DNA from: an uncultured virus (IMG/VR IMGVR_UViG_3300009502_000043)
Lineage: Duplodnaviria > Heunggongvirae > Uroviricota > Caudoviricetes
DNA length: 64,000 bases
Virus record (IMG/VR): IMGVR_UViG_3300009502_000043
Strand: one strand, 5' to 3'
In this document: positions 11,637 to 60,020 of the stretch, one piece after another
How the letters are laid out: each line of letters begins with the position of its first letter
Position numbering within the stretch: position 1 is the first letter of the stretch
Program-made: the position numbers and the translations under genes
Notes under the pieces: generated by a model
What the model saw: the letters and a program-made list of their open reading frames with translations, nothing else
The model's database searches: none
What the model was told of the DNA's origin: nothing

Positions 11637-12188
11637 ATGGTTTATGTAATGTTGTCGAAAGTAGATTCAGTTATTCAAAAATTAATTATTCGATATGTTA
11701 AAGAAAAAATTAAATTTGAAAACATAGAATATAGATTTATCTATAATCCAAAACATATTTTTGAATCAACTCTTGTCAATATTAATAAAGATAAGGATAT
11801 TGTTTTATGGAATCCAAATGTTGCTGGAGATAATATTTCGGTTGTTAATGAATTTAAAAATAGTGTTGTTATTCTTGAAAAGCAAACATTATTTGTACAA
11901 AAAATAAGCGAATTGAATCCGATCAATGAAAACATGGCAATAAACAATGGTTTTTATTTGATTTATATCAATCCAGAAGAAACAGAAATAACAAATAATG
12001 AGTGGAAACTTGTTGTACAAGAAGATCAATATTTATTATCAATTCAAAACTTATTGGAATTAATTAGGTTAGATCAAAATAATCTTAAAAATGAACATAT
12101 TGATATTCCAATAATTTTTGATGATAAAATCAATTTAACAAAAAATCAAATAAATCTGTCAAATAATGACGAAATAGAAATGTTATAA
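11637..12188 (+). CDS. hypothetical protein
   Basis: 183 aa ORF in a tightly packed operon. Confidence 0.55.
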   Translation: MVYVMLSKVDSVIQKLIIRYVKEKIKFENIEYRFIYNPKHIFESTLVNINKDKDIVLWNPNVAGDNISVVNEFKNSVVILEKQTLFVQKISELNPINENMAINNGFYLIYINPEETEITNNEWKLVVQEDQYLLSIQNLLELIRLDQNNLKNEHIDIPIIFDDKINLTKNQINLSNNDEIEML

Positions 12189-31448: not shown

Positions 31449-34400
31449 ATGTCTAATAACAAAATACTAACAGCTCAGGATATTGACGGTAATAGAAAAT
31501 CAATCGAAACACAAATTGAAAAAAATATTATCGAGTTCAATAAATTACGAATTAAAAAGAAAATCAAAGAAATTAAAGACATTAGAAAACATGAACAAAA
31601 ATTAGAATCAGAAACAATAACAGAGTTACTTACAAAAGAAGATATAATCAATTTACGAAATAAGTATTTTACCGATAATGAAACAGCATCATTTAGAGAA
31701 CAACAAAAAGAACAACTTCAATTAAAAAAGGAAAATTATTTTATAATGCGTCAAACAATTCAGGATTTGAATGAATTGAATGAATTTTCAGCAGAAATAG
31801 AAAGAAATAATATTCAAACAATTGATAACTTTTTACCTTTCAATGAAGTTATACAAAAATCAGTAGCAACATCAGGAACATTTCAAAAAATTGAACAAAT
31901 ACGTAAGGACAATATTAATGAATATATTCAATTATACTCTGATAAAAGTTTATCATTCAAGAGTGATCCTATTCAAATTTTGTTGAATATGCGTGAGTTA
32001 TATTCAATTGATAAAACAATTGATGATATTGATTTATATGAAAAATTTGAAATGGAATCAAACATTGATATGTCAAATAAATTGGCAGATATTTGTTTTC
32101 AAAAATATTCTAATAATGAAAAATCAGATAATATTATAAATGAATTTTCAAAAAATATAAATAATCCATTAGAAAAATTCGTTTCAAATCAAATTATTAA
32201 TAATAAAATGCTTGGTTTACTGTTGTTATCAAGTATGAATAATTCCAGAACATCTTTTATAACCAATAATTCTGTTACATGTTTAAAAACCATGTATTCA
32301 ACAACAGCAAATAATCAATATATTTACAATACACGTACACTTGGAGAATTATTGTACGAAATAACTAATGATGAAAATCGAGACATTGATAAACAATATA
32401 AACAACAAATATATTTAACCTATGATGGAAGTAGACCTTCATCTGAAGAATATTACAAATGGAATGGTTTACAAGTATTTGATATTGACTTGAAATATTG
32501 GAATGGAAATTTCGATTTATTAAAAAAGAAAATGTTTGAATATTTACATGATTTCCATTGGTTTCTTTGGATATGTAAATCTGCATCTGGAAAAGGTATT
32601 CATATTTATACAAAAGTATCACCACCACATCATGTTTATGTTGATTCAAAAGAAAATGAATATATAAGTAAATATTGGTTCAATGTTAATTATGCACATA
32701 AATCATCTGTAATTTATGATATACTTTATCGTTTGAATAAAGATAGATCAAGTAATATAAATTTTCCAAATAATTATTTCAATGAAGATTCAAATTTCTT
32801 TGAATTGACAAATAAAGTAATAATTGATGGTGATACAAAACTTATAGGTGTTGATAATACTGTTGCAAGAATAACATCAGGTATTCGTTTAACTTATGAT
32901 GAAAAACCAATTGTTAATCCAAATTTTTTAGATTTACATGTTGGATTAGGTTTAACACAAACATTAGATGGTCACAATTATCAAAAAACAATTAAAGAAG
33001 TTTTATTAAGAGAATCAACATATCATAGCAAATTAATATTGAAAATCAATGTTGATTTGATGGTTGTTAACATAAATGATATAAAAGACAATAAACCGTC
33101 AGATATTGATTTAAGTAAATTTATTACTTTAGGTGGTGATATATCAAATTTGTTACCTATTGCTCGTTCAGCTATTAATTACAATATGCGATATAATGTC
33201 TGTAATACATTAGCAGCATTATTTGGTAAAGATGGTTTACCAATAGCACATACTTTACTTGATTCCTATGGTTGTAAAAATGTTGGTGAAATAAATTCAT
33301 TCTATTCTTGTGCAATTAGTAATGGTAAAAAACCTTCTAAATTTGGATTAGATATTCTCAAAAAGAATGGAATAATAAAAACTATCGAACCTGAAGTAAA
33401 AGAAATAATAACAAATAACTTTAAAAATACTATTCGCAAAGCAATTGAAAATGCTTTAGATAATAAATTGAATCATCAAAATATTGAATTAGGTGATTAT
33501 GAATTTCTATCAGATAAAAAAGATATTCTTTTAAATCCTGCTAAAGGCGGAATAACTGGTTCCAAAATAAATATTATATTCTCTCCTCCTGGAACTGGAA
33601 AATGTCTTGGAAAAAACACACCAGTTTTAATGTTTGATTGTACAACAAAAATGATACAAGATATTAAAGTTGGTGATAAATTAATGGGATTAAATTCCAC
33701 ACCAAGAACAGTATTATCAACTTGTATTGGACAAGAAGAAATGTTTAGAATTATTCCTGAAAAAGGAGAACCATGGGAATGCAATAAATCACATATTCTT
33801 AGTGTTGTTGAATCAGGAATATATAATAGTGATTTTGGTAAAATACCAAACAACTATGATATACAAGATATTAACATATCTAAAATGTTAACATATTCAA
33901 AAAATCATAGAAAAAAATTATTTAGAGTTCCATTAAATTTTGAACATAATGATGTATTAATATCACCATATTTTTTAGGTTTATGGTTAGGTGATGGACA
34001 TTCTTCAAGAACTTCAGTTGCTGTTGGAGATATAGACAAAGATATAACAGTACCATTTTTAAATGCTTATGCTAAAAAATTAGATTGTAAATTAACAAGA
34101 TATGAAGATTTTAGGGATGGTCATAATGTATCCGAATATTCTATTGTTAGAGATGATAACGTATCAAATAAGTTATTAGATTTAATGAAATATTATGATA
34201 TTTTAAATAACAAACACATACCAAAAGATTATTTAATTAATGATCGTAAAACCAGATTAATGGTTTTTGCTGGATTAATTGATTCTGATGGTGGAGGAGC
34301 TGATGGAACTTATGATTATGTGACAAAATTACCACAGTTAAGAGATGATATAATATTTTTATGTCGTTCACTTGGTTATAATGTTAATTCAAAAGAAAAA

Positions 34401-36662
34401 ATAGTTGATGAAAAAATTTACCATAGAATTTTAATTAGCGGTAATTTTGAAGATGTTCCAGTAAGATTAATAAGGAAAAAATTCAAAAGAAATATAAATA
34501 AAAATCCATTAGTTACAGGATTTAAAATTGAATCAATAGGTATTGGTGATTATTATGGATTTGAAATTGATGGTGATAAACGTTTTATGCTTGGTGATTT
34601 TACAGTCACACATAATACAGAATTTATTAAAACACTTGCAAGAGACGGAAAACGTATCTTGTTGGTATTGCCATATATATCTGTCATCAAAAATAAAATT
34701 GAAACTGACGAAACTATTATGACAATGTTTGATTGTTATTATGGAACAAAAGATATAAAACAAATAGAATATGGAATTAATGCAGTAACAACTTTCGATA
34801 AATTCGCAAGATCAAATTATGATAAATTATCAAAAATGTTTGATTTTATATTCATAGATGAATCGCATTTATTGTTTACATCAGCATATCGTATTGAAGC
34901 AACAAGTAATGTTATTAAGAAAATCAAAGAATTATTTTTCATATCATCAAATGATCCATTCGCAGCTAAATTGTGTTTATTGACAGGAACTGAAACTGGT
35001 GAAAGTTATTTTTTCAGTTCAGTTGCAAATATAATCAGAGTAAATAAGAAATCATTAAATAAAACAATGGAATTTCTTATATGTGATGATTTATTGGATT
35101 CAGTAACACGTTTAGCAAGTGAATCATATAATTTACTTTCCGAAGGTTATAGATTATTAATTCCAACCAATAAAGGTGAAATATATTCTGAAAAACTTAT
35201 CGGAATGATTGAATATTTATTAGGAAGACCATTAAGATATGGTTATTATAAACGTTCAAATACCGAACAAGAAATATGTAAATTAATAAATGATCACAAT
35301 ACTGTTGGTGATTATGAAGTAATTTTTTGTTCAAATTATCTTTCTGTTGGTGTTGATATAAATGACAGAGTTAAATTCGCATCAATATATCTTGGTCCAT
35401 TTTCAGGTTATGAAATAGAACAATTCAATGCAAGAATTAGAAAATCCGGTATAAAATCAGTATGTTGTATACAAACTCAAAAAGCAGATGGAACAACAAA
35501 TGATTTATTATTGGAAGAACCAAATTTGTTATTAAGAATTACAGAAGAAGATCGTGACAATTTCATTGATGATAAGGCAATAGCATCTGCCAAACAAGAT
35601 TTCATTGCACAATATGATCCAGTTTTACATAAAATTGTTACTCCTGGATTTAGTTATTTTAATGGCAAAATTCGTTTTAATCTTGAAGAATATGAATTGA
35701 TGTCTTTTGAAAATAAGTACAATGAATGTATGCAACACCCAGTTAAAGTTGCAAGAGAACTTAACAAATATGGTTATAAAATTCATGTAAGTACTGAATT
35801 TGAAGGATTAGATTTAGTTAAACAAGAAGAATTAAAACAAATTGGTATAAAATCAGCCAAAGATGAAAAATTAAGAAAACATACATTATTGGTTGGAACT
35901 TACATAGATTTGGTTCAAAAAAATACTTACATAAATTCAAGTGGACTTGAGTTTAACGATATTATTGGTTGGATTGGAAAACATCCAGATTCTGTTATTG
36001 AAGATAGAAGTATTGAAAATTTCGTAAACATAAGATTTGATGTTTTCGCAAGTCCAATAGAAGTTACAGTTAAATCCAAAGAAGCATTAGATTTAATGTA
36101 CAGACCAGCCAAATATTTAATATCAAAATACTCAGTTACAAAAGCTGTTGATATTATAAATCAATATATTGATGATAACGGAATATTAAAACAAAAATTA
36201 TTCAAAAGAGCAATAAACTTATTGAAATTAGTTGATTCTTCTGATGCAAATGAATTAACTGAACCAATGACAAATATGTTGGAAAAAATGTATGATTTTG
36301 TTGATGATTTCGAACTTAAAAAGGATCATAAAATCAGTTATAATACGTATAATTCAAAAATTGATGAATGGTCAAATAGTTACATAGATCAATTGGGAAT
36401 CAAAATAAATACAACTTACGGATTTGATAAAATAAAAGATTCCTTATTAGAAATGTTAGCAGATATTGCAACAAAAACAACATCAAAAAACGGTATTAGA
36501 TTTTCATACAATAAATTGCCTGATCAAGATAGTTCAACAGTTTTAAATCGTAAAAGTGTTGATTCTATGATACAAAGAATGTTTCAAATTACATCTGAAG
36601 TAATTCAATCAGATAAAAATGTAAGACAAAAACATATCATATTAGTTGCACAAGACTTTTAA
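31449..36662 (+). CDS. Primase (AEP, BT4734/VirE-N-like) fused to an SF2 helicase; contains an intein
   Basis: WNGLQVFDID, SASGKGIHIY; helicase motifs SPPGTGK|T, LVLPY, FIDESH, LTGT, SVGVDI, EQFNARIR. Confidence 0.8.
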   Translation: MSNNKILTAQDIDGNRKSIETQIEKNIIEFNKLRIKKKIKEIKDIRKHEQKLESETITELLTKEDIINLRNKYFTDNETASFREQQKEQLQLKKENYFIMRQTIQDLNELNEFSAEIERNNIQTIDNFLPFNEVIQKSVATSGTFQKIEQIRKDNINEYIQLYSDKSLSFKSDPIQILLNMRELYSIDKTIDDIDLYEKFEMESNIDMSNKLADICFQKYSNNEKSDNIINEFSKNINNPLEKFVSNQIINNKMLGLLLLSSMNNSRTSFITNNSVTCLKTMYSTTANNQYIYNTRTLGELLYEITNDENRDIDKQYKQQIYLTYDGSRPSSEEYYKWNGLQVFDIDLKYWNGNFDLLKKKMFEYLHDFHWFLWICKSASGKGIHIYTKVSPPHHVYVDSKENEYISKYWFNVNYAHKSSVIYDILYRLNKDRSSNINFPNNYFNEDSNFFELTNKVIIDGDTKLIGVDNTVARITSGIRLTYDEKPIVNPNFLDLHVGLGLTQTLDGHNYQKTIKEVLLRESTYHSKLILKINVDLMVVNINDIKDNKPSDIDLSKFITLGGDISNLLPIARSAINYNMRYNVCNTLAALFGKDGLPIAHTLLDSYGCKNVGEINSFYSCAISNGKKPSKFGLDILKKNGIIKTIEPEVKEIITNNFKNTIRKAIENALDNKLNHQNIELGDYEFLSDKKDILLNPAKGGITGSKINIIFSPPGTGKCLGKNTPVLMFDCTTKMIQDIKVGDKLMGLNSTPRTVLSTCIGQEEMFRIIPEKGEPWECNKSHILSVVESGIYNSDFGKIPNNYDIQDINISKMLTYSKNHRKKLFRVPLNFEHNDVLISPYFLGLWLGDGHSSRTSVAVGDIDKDITVPFLNAYAKKLDCKLTRYEDFRDGHNVSEYSIVRDDNVSNKLLDLMKYYDILNNKHIPKDYLINDRKTRLMVFAGLIDSDGGGADGTYDYVTKLPQLRDDIIFLCRSLGYNVNSKEKIVDEKIYHRILISGNFEDVPVRLIRKKFKRNINKNPLVTGFKIESIGIGDYYGFEIDGDKRFMLGDFTVTHNTEFIKTLARDGKRILLVLPYISVIKNKIETDETIMTMFDCYYGTKDIKQIEYGINAVTTFDKFARSNYDKLSKMFDFIFIDESHLLFTSAYRIEATSNVIKKIKELFFISSNDPFAAKLCLLTGTETGESYFFSSVANIIRVNKKSLNKTMEFLICDDLLDSVTRLASESYNLLSEGYRLLIPTNKGEIYSEKLIGMIEYLLGRPLRYGYYKRSNTEQEICKLINDHNTVGDYEVIFCSNYLSVGVDINDRVKFASIYLGPFSGYEIEQFNARIRKSGIKSVCCIQTQKADGTTNDLLLEEPNLLLRITEEDRDNFIDDKAIASAKQDFIAQYDPVLHKIVTPGFSYFNGKIRFNLEEYELMSFENKYNECMQHPVKVARELNKYGYKIHVSTEFEGLDLVKQEELKQIGIKSAKDEKLRKHTLLVGTYIDLVQKNTYINSSGLEFNDIIGWIGKHPDSVIEDRSIENFVNIRFDVFASPIEVTVKSKEALDLMYRPAKYLISKYSVTKAVDIINQYIDDNGILKQKLFKRAINLLKLVDSSDANELTEPMTNMLEKMYDFVDDFELKKDHKISYNTYNSKIDEWSNSYIDQLGIKINTTYGFDKIKDSLLEMLADIATKTTSKNGIRFSYNKLPDQDSSTVLNRKSVDSMIQRMFQITSEVIQSDKNVRQKHIILVAQDF
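33603..34616 (+). mobile_element. Intein (338 aa) with LAGLIDADG homing endonuclease
   Basis: Begins CLGKNTPV, block B CNKSHIL, LGLWLGDG and FAGLIDSDG, ends YYGFEIDGDKRFMLGDFTVTHN then T; inserted in the Walker A motif GK|T. Confidence 0.95.
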
Positions 36663-57875: not shown

Positions 57876-58439
57876 ATGACACAAGAAAATCAGAATGCTG
57901 ACGTTTTGTCAGAAGGTTTGGAAGTTGGTGAAGTTGTAGCACCAGAAACAGGCGAAAAAGCTCCTAAAGTAAAAAAAGATCAAACACCGGAAGAAGCCGC
58001 ACAAATTGAAGCAGGTATTGCAAAAATCAAACAATTTGGTGTAGGTACAAAGTTTGCCTTGGTTATGGACAACCTGGCAGTTGCCTGGAACAGTGGTGAC
58101 AAAGATGTTTTGACTGCTAACAAAGAAGCTCTTATGAAAGAGTTTGGTGGTTCTGAAAACCTTAAAGATTATATCGATGGTGATTTCCAGGCTGAACTTA
58201 CCGAAATTCAGGGAACTGCAAAAGTTTGTTCTATCCTGAATAACGTAAAATCATTTTACGCTCGCCGGGCAACAACAACCAAAGCAAAAACTGTTCAGGT
58301 TAATATCGGTGGTACATTGTACAATGTTGATGCAGCTTACTATGCTGAAATTGCAAACGAAACTCGCGAAACAAAACGTGAACTTTTACTTGCACATGCC
58401 GGTACCCAGGTTGCTACATCAGTACCAGAAGTACTGTAG
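57876..58439 (+). CDS. hypothetical protein, probably highly expressed
   Basis: 187 aa; visibly more C/G-ending codons (AAC, ATC, GCC, CAG) than neighbours; own terminator. Confidence 0.75.
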   Translation: MTQENQNADVLSEGLEVGEVVAPETGEKAPKVKKDQTPEEAAQIEAGIAKIKQFGVGTKFALVMDNLAVAWNSGDKDVLTANKEALMKEFGGSENLKDYIDGDFQAELTEIQGTAKVCSILNNVKSFYARRATTTKAKTVQVNIGGTLYNVDAAYYAEIANETRETKRELLLAHAGTQVATSVPEVL

Positions 58440-58470
58440 TCAGTAAAAAAGCTCAATACAGATTAGATTT

Positions 58471-58513
58471 AAAACCCTGGGGACTAACAATAACAATACC
58501 CAGGGTTTTTTTT
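58471..58513 (+). terminator. Intrinsic terminator
   Basis: AAAACCCTGGGG...CCCAGGGTTTT followed by further Ts. Confidence 0.8.
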
Positions 58514-58540
58514 TCCTAAAGTTATTAAAAACATCAAAAC

Positions 58541-58950
58541 GGGGAATCTTGGTTTTGACAGCATAGAGACAGGTAATCATTCAACACGAATATGATAAAA
58601 TTTCGGTAAAAAGTTATCAAAAACAATAACAGGCAAAGGAAAAATCGTGAATTTCTTAGACAAGGTCTTTGGAAATTCAAACGAAGAAGTATCAATGCAA
58701 ATTGCTGCTTAATTTCATAACTTATTATTTTTTAATGAAAAGAGTTTGGGATTTACAGAGTTAATGAAAATTCCTGGTGGAAACTGGTGGAGTGTATCAA
58801 AACCAGTCAGCCCAAATTTTGGTTGTTTTATTAAAAGGTTTTGTCCTGAAAAACAACATACTGATGTGATTGTGAAAGAATCACAAGAAGTTGTAGCAAG
58901 ATGATTATTGGTCCTTTGTTTGGACACCGGTTCGAGTCCGGTATTCTCCA
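58541..58950 (+). ncRNA. ssrA: tmRNA
   Basis: 5' GGGGAAT pairs with 3' ATTCTCC-A, giving the G3:U Ala identity pair; GGTTTTGAC D-loop; T-arm ACCGG-TTCGAGT-CCGGT; GTAATCAT/ATGATTAT helix; tag frame 58632-58712 ending IAA-stop; CCA not encoded. Confidence 0.93.
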
Positions 58951-58989
58951 CTAATAATGATTTGAATAAAAATCAGATCAAACAATATT

Positions 58990-59532
58990 TAAAACATTCC
59001 GCCAATGTAGGCACCGAAATGACGGTTATATGCCATCTCCGTCATAGCCTTCCGGAATCCGCCGGGAAATTTGGATAAAGAAGTTTGGATTAAATTCCGA
59101 TATGTAACTTCATCCTACTCCCATCATGAAGTGTTTGAAAAAAGTAGAATATCAAACACAAAACGATATGGTTCTGCTCATAATATGAATGAAGATCATA
59201 TTCGCCTCGCTAAGGTACCCAGGAAGTATTTGAATAATCGAATATTACTGTAAAGTGCAAAAAAATGTTGGAATGATTCTTATGTGCACGTATTGCTTGA
59301 ATTTCAACAGTAAACCAATTAGATTTTTCGGTTATATTCCGCCAGTAGAATATCGGTTAGTCGTGAATTGCTTCCGATATATCTTATATCGCGGTCAAAG
59401 ATTGTCCGGTCAAGATTCGCGTATTCGCTTACAGTACCGACCGATCAAGTTTCGGAAATCATTTGGTTGAAAATTTTGAGTATCTTTAATATTTGAAAGT
59501 CTTACGACAGTAGAATATGCTCAAAATTTTTT
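58990..59532 (+). ncRNA. Candidate large structured non-coding RNA (unassigned)
   Basis: GC-elevated, no credible ORF, at least 10 local and long-range helices with G-U pairs favouring the + strand, repeated AGTAGAATAT hairpin module; lies between tmRNA and tRNA. Confidence 0.6.
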
Positions 59533-59768
59533 ATTTGGTAATTTATTAAAAGTTAGTGTGACGTTTGTTAAGTAATTTCGAGTTGCCGAATATTTTTGAT
59601 TTAGTCAAGAATTTCGTTCAAACAAACATTAGTTTTTGATTCTTTATAGGTGAGAGTCGAAAATGTGGACTGGTTCCGAGCCTCTCAGGAAAAAATCGGA
59701 AAATAATAAAATGTTTTCTGTTTCCATGGAAAAGAATACCAGCAATCAAGAAATTTCTTTTCCAAAAC

Positions 59769-59841
59769 TGTCTTGTGGTGTAATTGGCAACACGTCTGGT
59801 TTTGGTCCAGAAGAGTTCAGGTTCGAGACCTGATGAGACAA
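59769..59841 (+). tRNA. tRNA-Gln (anticodon TTG)
   Basis: Acceptor TGTCTTG/TGAGACA-A, D-arm GTGT-AATTGGCA-ACAC, anticodon arm TCTGG-TTTTGGT-CCAGA, T-arm TCAGG-TTCGAGA-CCTGA; CCA not encoded. Confidence 0.93.
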
Positions 59842-59911
59842 CGATTTTAGTGAATATAAGGTTAAAGGTTTAAAGGTTTAGTGATTATTTGGCTCATAAG
59901 AGCTTTGATTA

Positions 59912-59944
59912 AGAGGGAAGCAAAGCAATTTGTTTCCCTTTTTT
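59912..59944 (+). terminator. Intrinsic terminator closing the RNA cluster
   Basis: GAGGGAAGCAAA-GCAA-TTTGTTTCCCTT plus T run. Confidence 0.8.
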
Positions 59945-59959
59945 ATTTTATTCGTCAAT

Positions 59960-59987
59960 CCATATTGCCATAAAATACTGGATAAAT
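59960..59987 (+). promoter_or_regulatory. Putative phage promoter motif, exact
   Basis: CCATATT-N13-GGATAAAT. Confidence 0.75.
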
Positions 59988-60020
59988 ATATTAGTAACAA
60001 ATCACTAAAATCATATATAA

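What the first reader, a model, noticed from the sequence alone, without database searches (positions are those of the whole stretch)
58990..59532. Unassigned ~550-nt highly structured RNA between phage tmRNA and tRNA-Gln
Seen: a GC-elevated stretch in an otherwise wall-to-wall coding, AT-rich genome, packed with helices. Examples: ATGACGG/CCGTCAT (59019-25/59039-45) nested in AGGC/GCCT; TTCCGG/CCGGGA (59050-67); ACTTCAT/ATGAAGT (59107-32); GTGTTTGA/TCAAACAC (59131-59); AATATGA/TCATATT (59182-202); AGTATTTGA/TCGAATATT (59225-46); TTACTG/CAGTAA (59245-50/59308-13) enclosing GTGCA/TGCAC; closing helix AACCAA..GATTT/AAATC..TTGGTT (59313-26/59456-68); possible long-range ACCGAAA/TTTCGGT (59013-19/59326-32); and a 14-bp stem 59470-83/59517-30. 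Some helices overlap, so not all can form at once. G-U pairs favour the + strand. Known: large phage ncRNAs such as GOLLD and ROOL occur beside tRNA genes. Inference: a large functional RNA co-transcribed with tmRNA and tRNA. I cannot match it by eye to RNase P, group I/II introns or 6S RNA.
Basis: partly seen in the sequence, partly recalled or inferred. Interest (0 to 1): 0.85.

Follow-up and report, generated by a model that had tools for sequence, protein, structure and literature searches.

The report
Phage RNA with conserved pseudoknot core
Right behind its ribosome-rescue RNA gene, a large lake phage seems to encode an unclassified RNA of about 580 bases whose sequence changes almost beyond recognition between related phages while a knotted core fold is kept, and whose job is unknown.

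Summary
The listed helices exist, but 'highly structured' does not hold up thermodynamically: z -2.35 is matched by 11 of 27 control windows. Comparison supports a real RNA. Of 10 syntenic phage loci, 5 carry a 540-660-nt spacer here with no significant sequence likeness to the window. Pairs change on both sides in 19 of 22 columns. A descriptor drawn from the relatives fits 3 of 5000 shuffles. A covariance model built without the window finds the site only weakly (E 1.4). All five spacers and the window end in a terminator-like hairpin. Rfam, ROOL, GOLLD and RNase P tests were negative. Best reading: an unclassified large phage RNA released from the tmRNA transcript, acting as a scaffold or decoy. 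Expression is untested. The scan has no earlier record of this sequence; it noted RNase P RNAs in other phages.

The parts
57876..58439 (+). 187-aa gene of unknown function, the upstream synteny anchor; also present in relatives that lack the RNA, so not an obligate partner
   Evidence: no Pfam, PHROG or Atlas match
58471..58514 (+). Terminator-like hairpin with U tract after the 187-aa gene
   Evidence: read from the sequence; similar hairpins in L003, L009, L010, L011
58541..58953 (+). tmRNA; its 3' end probably sets the 5' end of the candidate RNA (inferred)
   Evidence: ARAGORN; Rfam RF00023 55.4 bits
58954..59537 (+). Candidate large non-coding RNA, about 580 nt (ends inferred, not measured)
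   Evidence: synteny, shared core, 3' terminator-like hairpin
58954..59130 (+). Variable 5' arm with several hairpins; no counterpart detected in relatives
   Evidence: local z down to -2.5
59131..59159 (+). Hairpin PA: 8-bp stem and 13-nt loop (four A, six variable bases, AUA)
   Evidence: 7 of 7 scored columns change on both sides across window, L002, L009, L011
59143..59178 (+). H-type pseudoknot helix PK: loop bases 59143-50 pair with 59171-78 (8 bp)
   Evidence: 8/8, 8/8, 6/8 and 7/8 pairs in window, L011, L009, L002; swapped partners average 4.4
59182..59202 (+). Hairpin PB: 7-bp stem with a T-loop-like loop (7 nt here; 6 nt, U-R-A-A-A-C, in the relatives); the T-loop label is recalled
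   Evidence: 7/7 pairs in the 5 sequences scored, 6 of 7 columns change on both sides; the only such hairpin of 7 bp or more in each of five relatives' loci
59204..59262 (+). Small hairpin, longer hairpin (59220-50) and an A-rich motif ending in CAAAA; same order in relatives, pairing register not resolved
   Evidence: alignments A7 and A8; constrained folds
59263..59468 (+). Variable 3' arm, CG-rich; holds a second copy of the pseudoknot's loop strand (59344) and short repeats of the 5' arm
59469..59537 (+). Terminator-like hairpin and U-rich tail; holds a third copy of the pseudoknot's loop strand (59509)
   Evidence: not listed by the simple terminator scan
59646..59765 (+). Separate conserved structured leader in front of the tRNA (see Noticed in passing)
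59769..59842 (+). tRNA-Gln(UUG)

Best explanation
The stretch encodes a trans-acting RNA of about 580 nt, specific to one clade of AT-rich T4-like large phages. Shown: the position, a 3' terminator-like hairpin and a core fold (H-type pseudoknot, then a T-loop-like hairpin and two more hairpins) are kept between phages whose spacer sequences are not recognisably alike. Inferred: it is transcribed with tmRNA, freed when host nucleases mature the tmRNA 3' end, and ended by the hairpin at 59469-59537. The pseudoknot and T-loop dock into a compact, nuclease-resistant core. That core binds a partner by shape rather than by sequence, as a scaffold or decoy in the phage's translation-support island, most plausibly for a host RNA-binding protein or anti-phage nuclease. 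The arms are exchangeable. I put a real conserved RNA at about 0.8, and this whole account including the binding role at 0.45.
For: Synteny: 5 of 10 independent relatives have a 540-660-nt spacer here, four behind tmRNA and one (L002) without it. Core: 92 of 95 scored cells pair and 19 of 22 columns change on both sides. A descriptor made only from what L002, L009 and L011 share matches the window's spacer with an 8-bp pseudoknot; 3 of 5000 shuffles match, 1 with 7 bp or more. In 665 kb of further phage DNA its only hit with a pseudoknot is L002's own element. L002's spacer folds at z -7.6. There are 8 G-U against 1 A-C cell on the + strand. The spacer diverges far faster than tmRNA (L003-L009: 0.56 against 0.81), which fits selection on shape. 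No coding similarity between spacers (tblastx empty).
Against: No expression data. The window's folding energy is ordinary for this genome. The core was first spotted by eye, so the full descriptor and the helix choice behind the covariation and G-U counts are post hoc, and they rest on only 4-5 sequences. A covariance model built without the window and L002 finds both at the predicted places but not significantly: 15.4 bits, E 1.4, rank 9 in 64 kb, and 17.3 bits, E 2.2. That model's alignment was out of register for L011 and L003/L010. L003 and L010 fit PB but have only a 3-bp PA stem and an imperfect pseudoknot; L010 folds no better than shuffles. Four relatives (L001, L016, L020, L021) show no such element. 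Nothing here identifies a partner.
Confidence: 0.45

Rival explanations
1. Only the ~130-nt core (59131-59262) is a functional small RNA or processing signal; the arms are loosely structured spacer trimmed away or tolerated, so there is no large RNA.
For: Arms share no sequence with relatives and vary from about 65 to 290 nt on either side. L003 and L010 align only from just upstream of the core to the terminator; their first 150-240 nt are unrelated.
Against: Total length is held at about 460-590 nt up to the terminator in all six. L002's arms fold very stably, and L003/L010 stay closely alike for about 150 nt past the core.
Confidence: 0.2
2. A circularly permuted, P1-less derivative of RNase P RNA: PA = P2, PA loop = conserved region V, PK = P4, PB = type-B P5.1. 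It would trim phage tRNA and tmRNA 5' ends.
For: The PK is 8 bp like P4 and has an A-rich lead-in. Type-B RNase P loci fetched here have a 6-nt U-R-A-R-A-Y hairpin just after P4, like PB in the relatives. The best P11/region-II matrix hit falls where predicted in the window and L009, and the best region-I hit in L003. L002 and L019 have insertions where P3 and a P1 remnant would sit (by eye). Unchecked scan notes report RNase P RNAs in other phages' tRNA arrays.
Against: No RF00010 or RF00011 match at the element. HMMs from 58 type-A and 6 type-B genes give no hit on 7 spacers. Matrix scores are low (best 10.7 of 25.4 bits) and region V never scores at the PA loop. The P4 sequence and bulged U described as conserved in PMC11143913 (passage) are missing in 4 of 5 independent sequences. 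There is no room for P5 or P7. Normal-order topology scores no better than shuffles.
Confidence: 0.08
3. An RNA decoy for a host type III toxin-antitoxin nuclease, working like pseudo-ToxI: the A-flanked H-type pseudoknot plugs the toxin.
For: ToxI monomers are classic H-type pseudoknots with single-stranded tails, and a phage escaped ToxIN with a pseudo-ToxI (PMC5086642, passages). The fast sequence turnover fits an arms race.
Against: Antitoxins and their mimic are tandem arrays of 34-36-nt repeats (PMC5086642). No tandem array lies in the element, the pseudoknot is single-copy and 48 nt, and no Rfam family matched.
Confidence: 0.1
4. A replication origin or primer-RNA region, where a structured RNA or single-stranded DNA precedes an AT-rich unwinding element.
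For: It is the only long non-coding gap, it evolves fast, and an AT-rich stretch follows. ColE1 RNA II has a similar length (recalled).
Against: A terminator-like hairpin closes the element before the AT-rich part. In record G004 the locus is not at a GC-skew turn (one record, a remote variant). Four relatives lack the element.
Confidence: 0.1
5. Ordinary intergenic DNA; the shared fold is a chance pattern picked by eye in AT-rich sequence.
For: Unremarkable folding energy, no sequence similarity, non-significant model score, and one coding-region match to the leave-out descriptor at 11719.
Against: The descriptor matches at most 3 of 5000 shuffles. The full module occurs only in the four syntenic spacers within 629 kb scanned, duplicates of L002 aside.
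Confidence: 0.07

Closest known systems
ROOL RNA (Rfam RF03087) and GOLLD RNA (RF02032)
   Same: Large non-coding RNAs of phages, often near tRNA islands, with pseudoknots and variable linkers, function unknown (PMC12286853, passages and Discussion). Similar size to ROOL.
   Different: No match to either model. Here only a ~130-nt core is shared, with no detectable sequence likeness between most members. Cage formation is untested.
Bacterial RNase P RNA, type B (RF00011) and type A (RF00010)
   Same: An 8-bp pseudoknot helix with A-rich flanks, a following hairpin with a 6-nt loop like L5.1, and a tRNA/tmRNA context.
   Different: The two helix strands come in the reverse order, the conserved P4 sequence and bulged U are mostly absent, P1, P5 and P7 are not found, and no model or HMM hits.
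Type III antitoxin RNAs and phage pseudo-ToxI
   Same: Classic H-type pseudoknot with A-rich single strands; a phage RNA decoy is on record (PMC5086642, passages; PMC3475682, listing only).
   Different: No tandem repeats, a larger single pseudoknot inside a long RNA, and no toxin gene downstream.

Membership tests
ROOL (RF03087) | Score at the Rfam cut-off (99.1 bits) | tested here: not met
   No hit at E <= 10 in the window region, at E <= 5 in 5 relatives' loci, or in 3 of 3 records searched. No positive control rang.
GOLLD (RF02032) | Score at the Rfam cut-off (150 bits), conserved 3' region | tested here: not met
   0 of 3 records. No known GOLLD was run as a control.
ROOL/GOLLD | Encoded in a phage beside tRNA genes, several hundred nt long | tested here: met
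   context as described in PMC12286853.
ROOL/GOLLD | Homo-oligomeric RNA cage | not testable with these tools
   Needs mass photometry or cryo-EM.
RNase P RNA | Match to RF00010/RF00011 or to profiles of real genes | tested here: not met
   controls over the cut-off in 8 of 14; 2 of 14; one 10.4-bit hit elsewhere in G004.
RNase P RNA | Conserved P4 sequence with bulged U | tested here: not met
   The 8-bp helix has no bulged U in the window, L011, L009 and L002; a bulged-U register is possible only in L003/L010.
RNase P RNA | P1-P2-P4 topology in normal order | tested here: not met
   Best scores 42-53 against shuffles 37-59; 8 of 12 real genes recovered the true P4 at 47-65.
RNase P RNA | Permuted arrangement of conserved regions | tested here: inconclusive
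   Some matrix top hits fall at predicted places but with low scores; region V does not.
RNase P RNA | Pre-tRNA cleavage | not testable with these tools
   Bench assay.
Type III antitoxin / pseudo-ToxI | Tandem array of 34-36-nt repeats | tested here: not met
   definition from PMC5086642.
Type III antitoxin / pseudo-ToxI | H-type pseudoknot with single-stranded tails | tested here: met
   Predicted from covariation, not probed.
Group I/II introns, 6S, OLE and other Rfam families | Rfam model match | tested here: not met
   within the element only weak hits (13-21 bits) to unrelated small families, far below their cut-offs.

The most novel reading that the evidence does not exclude
The RNA is a naturally circularly permuted, P1-less descendant of RNase P RNA (or an independent ribozyme built on the same pseudoknot and T-loop geometry) that the phage uses to mature its own tmRNA and tRNAs, and whose sequence has drifted beyond all profile searches.
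Probability: 0.08. Interest if true: 0.92.

Novelty: new member of a known kind. Interest (0 to 1): 0.6.

Why it matters
Large phage RNAs beside tRNA genes (ROOL, GOLLD) are a small class with striking structures and no known function. This would add a family that similarity-based RNA discovery would tend to miss, because most members share no detectable sequence and are linked only by synteny and fold. It gives a compact core with natural compensatory variants, ready for probing, cryo-EM and partner pull-down, and suggests that synteny-guided searches of jumbo-phage tmRNA islands will find more.

Tried and rejected
No whole genome is held for the window. blastn of the spacer against cultured phages gave three chance-level hits, and the two flanking proteins have no match there. 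The GTDB scan with the 187-aa alignment found nothing. Sequencing runs: no RNA holder listed. Contigs of 4 DNA runs from one study showed no variant in the spacer, so no population covariation. A pattern for the tRNA leader returned two known contigs and five loci that read as chance matches in coding DNA, with no tRNA; a second pattern returned only known contigs. MAFFT of whole spacers was uninformative, and MAFFT of the core was out of register, so pairs were counted on hand-set coordinates; one L002 coordinate was off by one and corrected. Many by-eye motif echoes of RNase P were dropped. Short ORFs in the spacer (56-71 aa) have no counterpart in relatives. Model R1 found no second copy with E below 0.07 in 5 records. 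Literature: 8 searches showed no paper on this RNA. The catalogue of PMC10690425 covers IMG/VR RNAs of 29-151 nt; 3 of its 6 listed supplements could not be searched and 3 further files were too large, so a piece of the core or the leader may be listed there.

Full report
Setting. The window is a 26% GC segment of a T4-like large phage: terminase, topoisomerase, ribonucleotide reductase, thymidylate synthase, ligase and helicases. The best helicase matches are phages PAU and PTm1 at about 29% identity, which hints at a Bacteroidota host (inference). Its DNA occurs in freshwater runs. The only long non-coding gap, 58440-60020, holds tmRNA (58541-58953), the finding, and tRNA-Gln (59769-59842).

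Observation check. All 11 helices checked pair fully. The region is GC- and CG-rich. Its folding energy is not unusual: z -2.35, against 11 of 27 control windows at or below -2.3; tmRNA scores -2.9. Rfam gives nothing meaningful in the stretch. On the window alone the claim would be weak.

Relatives. Flanking proteins gave 10 independent syntenic loci: L001, L002, L003, L009, L010, L011, L016, L019, L020 and L021 (duplicates set aside). L003, L009, L010 and L011 have tmRNA, then a 540-640-nt spacer, then a leader motif and tRNA-Glu. L002 has a 660-nt spacer and tRNA-Gln without tmRNA, and L019 a 415-nt spacer in a tRNA cluster. L001, L016, L020 and L021 show no such element. No spacer resembles the window's in sequence (best z 1.9); only L003 and L010 resemble each other. 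Spacer identity is 0.51-0.56 where tmRNA identity is 0.59-0.81. Folding z ranges from -7.6 in L002 to +0.45 in L010 (12 shuffles).

The shared core. By eye I found a hairpin PA whose 13-nt loop (four A, six variable bases, AUA) pairs with the strand just before a 7-bp hairpin PB with a T-loop-like loop. This is a classic H-type pseudoknot. A descriptor for it hits only the spacers of the window, L002, L009 and L011 in 629 kb, and 0-1 of 3000 shuffles each (post hoc). Counted on fixed coordinates, 92 of 95 cells pair. Both partners change in 7 of 7 PA, 6 of 8 PK and 6 of 7 PB columns, and swapped strands pair only 2.8, 4.4 and 4.1 times on average. As a less circular test, a descriptor limited to what the three relatives share matches the window's spacer with an 8-bp pseudoknot and 3 of 5000 shuffles. 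It has one other hit in the window, in coding DNA with 5 bp, and two in 665 kb more phage DNA: L002's element and a 3-bp non-knot. A covariance model built without the window and L002 aligned end to end to 59127-59269, but at 15.4 bits, E 1.4, rank 9, and to L002's core at E 2.2. That is meaningful only given the syntenic prior. L003 and L010 have PB exactly but a shorter PA and an imperfect knot; L019 has a PA and 6-bp knot with an insertion and no clear PB. All five spacers and the window end in a hairpin with a U-rich tail. The arms around the core vary from about 65 to 290 nt.

What it is not. ROOL and GOLLD models do not match (no true positive was run). I pursued RNase P hard, because the pseudoknot has P4's length, PB resembles type-B P5.1, and unchecked scan notes report phage RNase P RNAs elsewhere. 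The models fail, HMMs from 64 real genes fail, conserved-region scores are low, normal-order topology is no better than shuffles, and the conserved P4 sequence with its bulged U (PMC11143913, passage) is mostly missing. A permuted remnant stays possible at about 8%. There is no antitoxin-type repeat array.

How it most likely works. Shown: conserved position, 3' hairpin and core fold. Inferred: transcription with tmRNA, release by tmRNA 3' maturation, termination near 59537, and a compact core that binds a partner by shape. A fold kept while the sequence turns over faster than tmRNA's fits a scaffold or decoy better than a catalyst or an antisense RNA. The island around it (tmRNA, tRNA-Gln, tRNA-Glu, tRNA-like RNAs in relatives) points to translation support or counter-defence. 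No partner, transcript or activity was observed. The tRNA-Gln probably belongs to a second unit with its own conserved leader.

Papers seen: PMC12286853 (passages and Discussion), PMC7162821 (passages: tmRNA in huge phages, no mention of RNase P), PMC10690425 (passages, supplement list, partial supplement search), PMC11143913 and PMC5086642 (passages), PMC3475682 (listing only). Eight searches showed no description of this RNA. The labels T-loop, P5.1 and the ColE1 comparison are recalled.

Verdict. Probably a real, unclassified phage RNA family with a covarying pseudoknot core. The support rests on 4-6 sequences and no expression data. Interest 0.6.

Noticed in passing
window 59646-59765; L002 15726-15800, L001 18691-18770, L003 16995-17090, L010 9914-10010, L009 9968-10062, L011 9347-9443 and 9565-9610, L019 6220-6292: A separate conserved ~80-120-nt structured motif, in most copies just 5' of a tRNA or tRNA-like RNA: a stem enclosing an A-rich strand and a small hairpin, an optional hairpin, and a last hairpin whose loop can pair with the motif's 5' end. 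The window and L002 share 26 identical bases. No Rfam match. It could be a small ribozyme or processing signal and deserves its own study.
   Followed up: partly
L003 17170-17380, L009 10140-10330, L010 10090-10310, L011 9860-10020: Another conserved non-coding element after tRNA-Glu (long interrupted hairpin plus a second domain), absent from the window, with no Rfam match.
   Followed up: no
L003 17410-17505, L009 10370-10475, L010 10350-10450, L011 10020-10110, L001 18775-18830, L019 5550-5611: tRNA-like RNAs with an acceptor stem and T arm but a long or odd anticodon arm; mostly missed by ARAGORN.
   Followed up: no
L003 17685-17790, L009 10635-10745, L010 10540-10655, L011 10275-10380: A third conserved ~110-nt non-coding element before tRNA-Asn/Met, absent from the window.
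   Followed up: no
window 59143, 59344, 59509: The pseudoknot's 8-nt loop strand occurs three times in the candidate RNA and once elsewhere in the window; other short repeats link the 5' and 3' arms. This could be an old duplication or alternative pairing.
   Followed up: partly
window about 59979-59992: A GGATA(T)AAATA-like motif just before the next gene recurs in L001, L003, L010, L011 and L019; it resembles a T4 late promoter (recalled).
   Followed up: no
window 31449-36662: A 1737-aa ORF with Hint and homing-endonuclease domains, probably intein-containing.
   Followed up: no
L021 5530-5925: A different structured non-coding stretch ending in a T-arm-like hairpin at the same syntenic place.
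   Followed up: no
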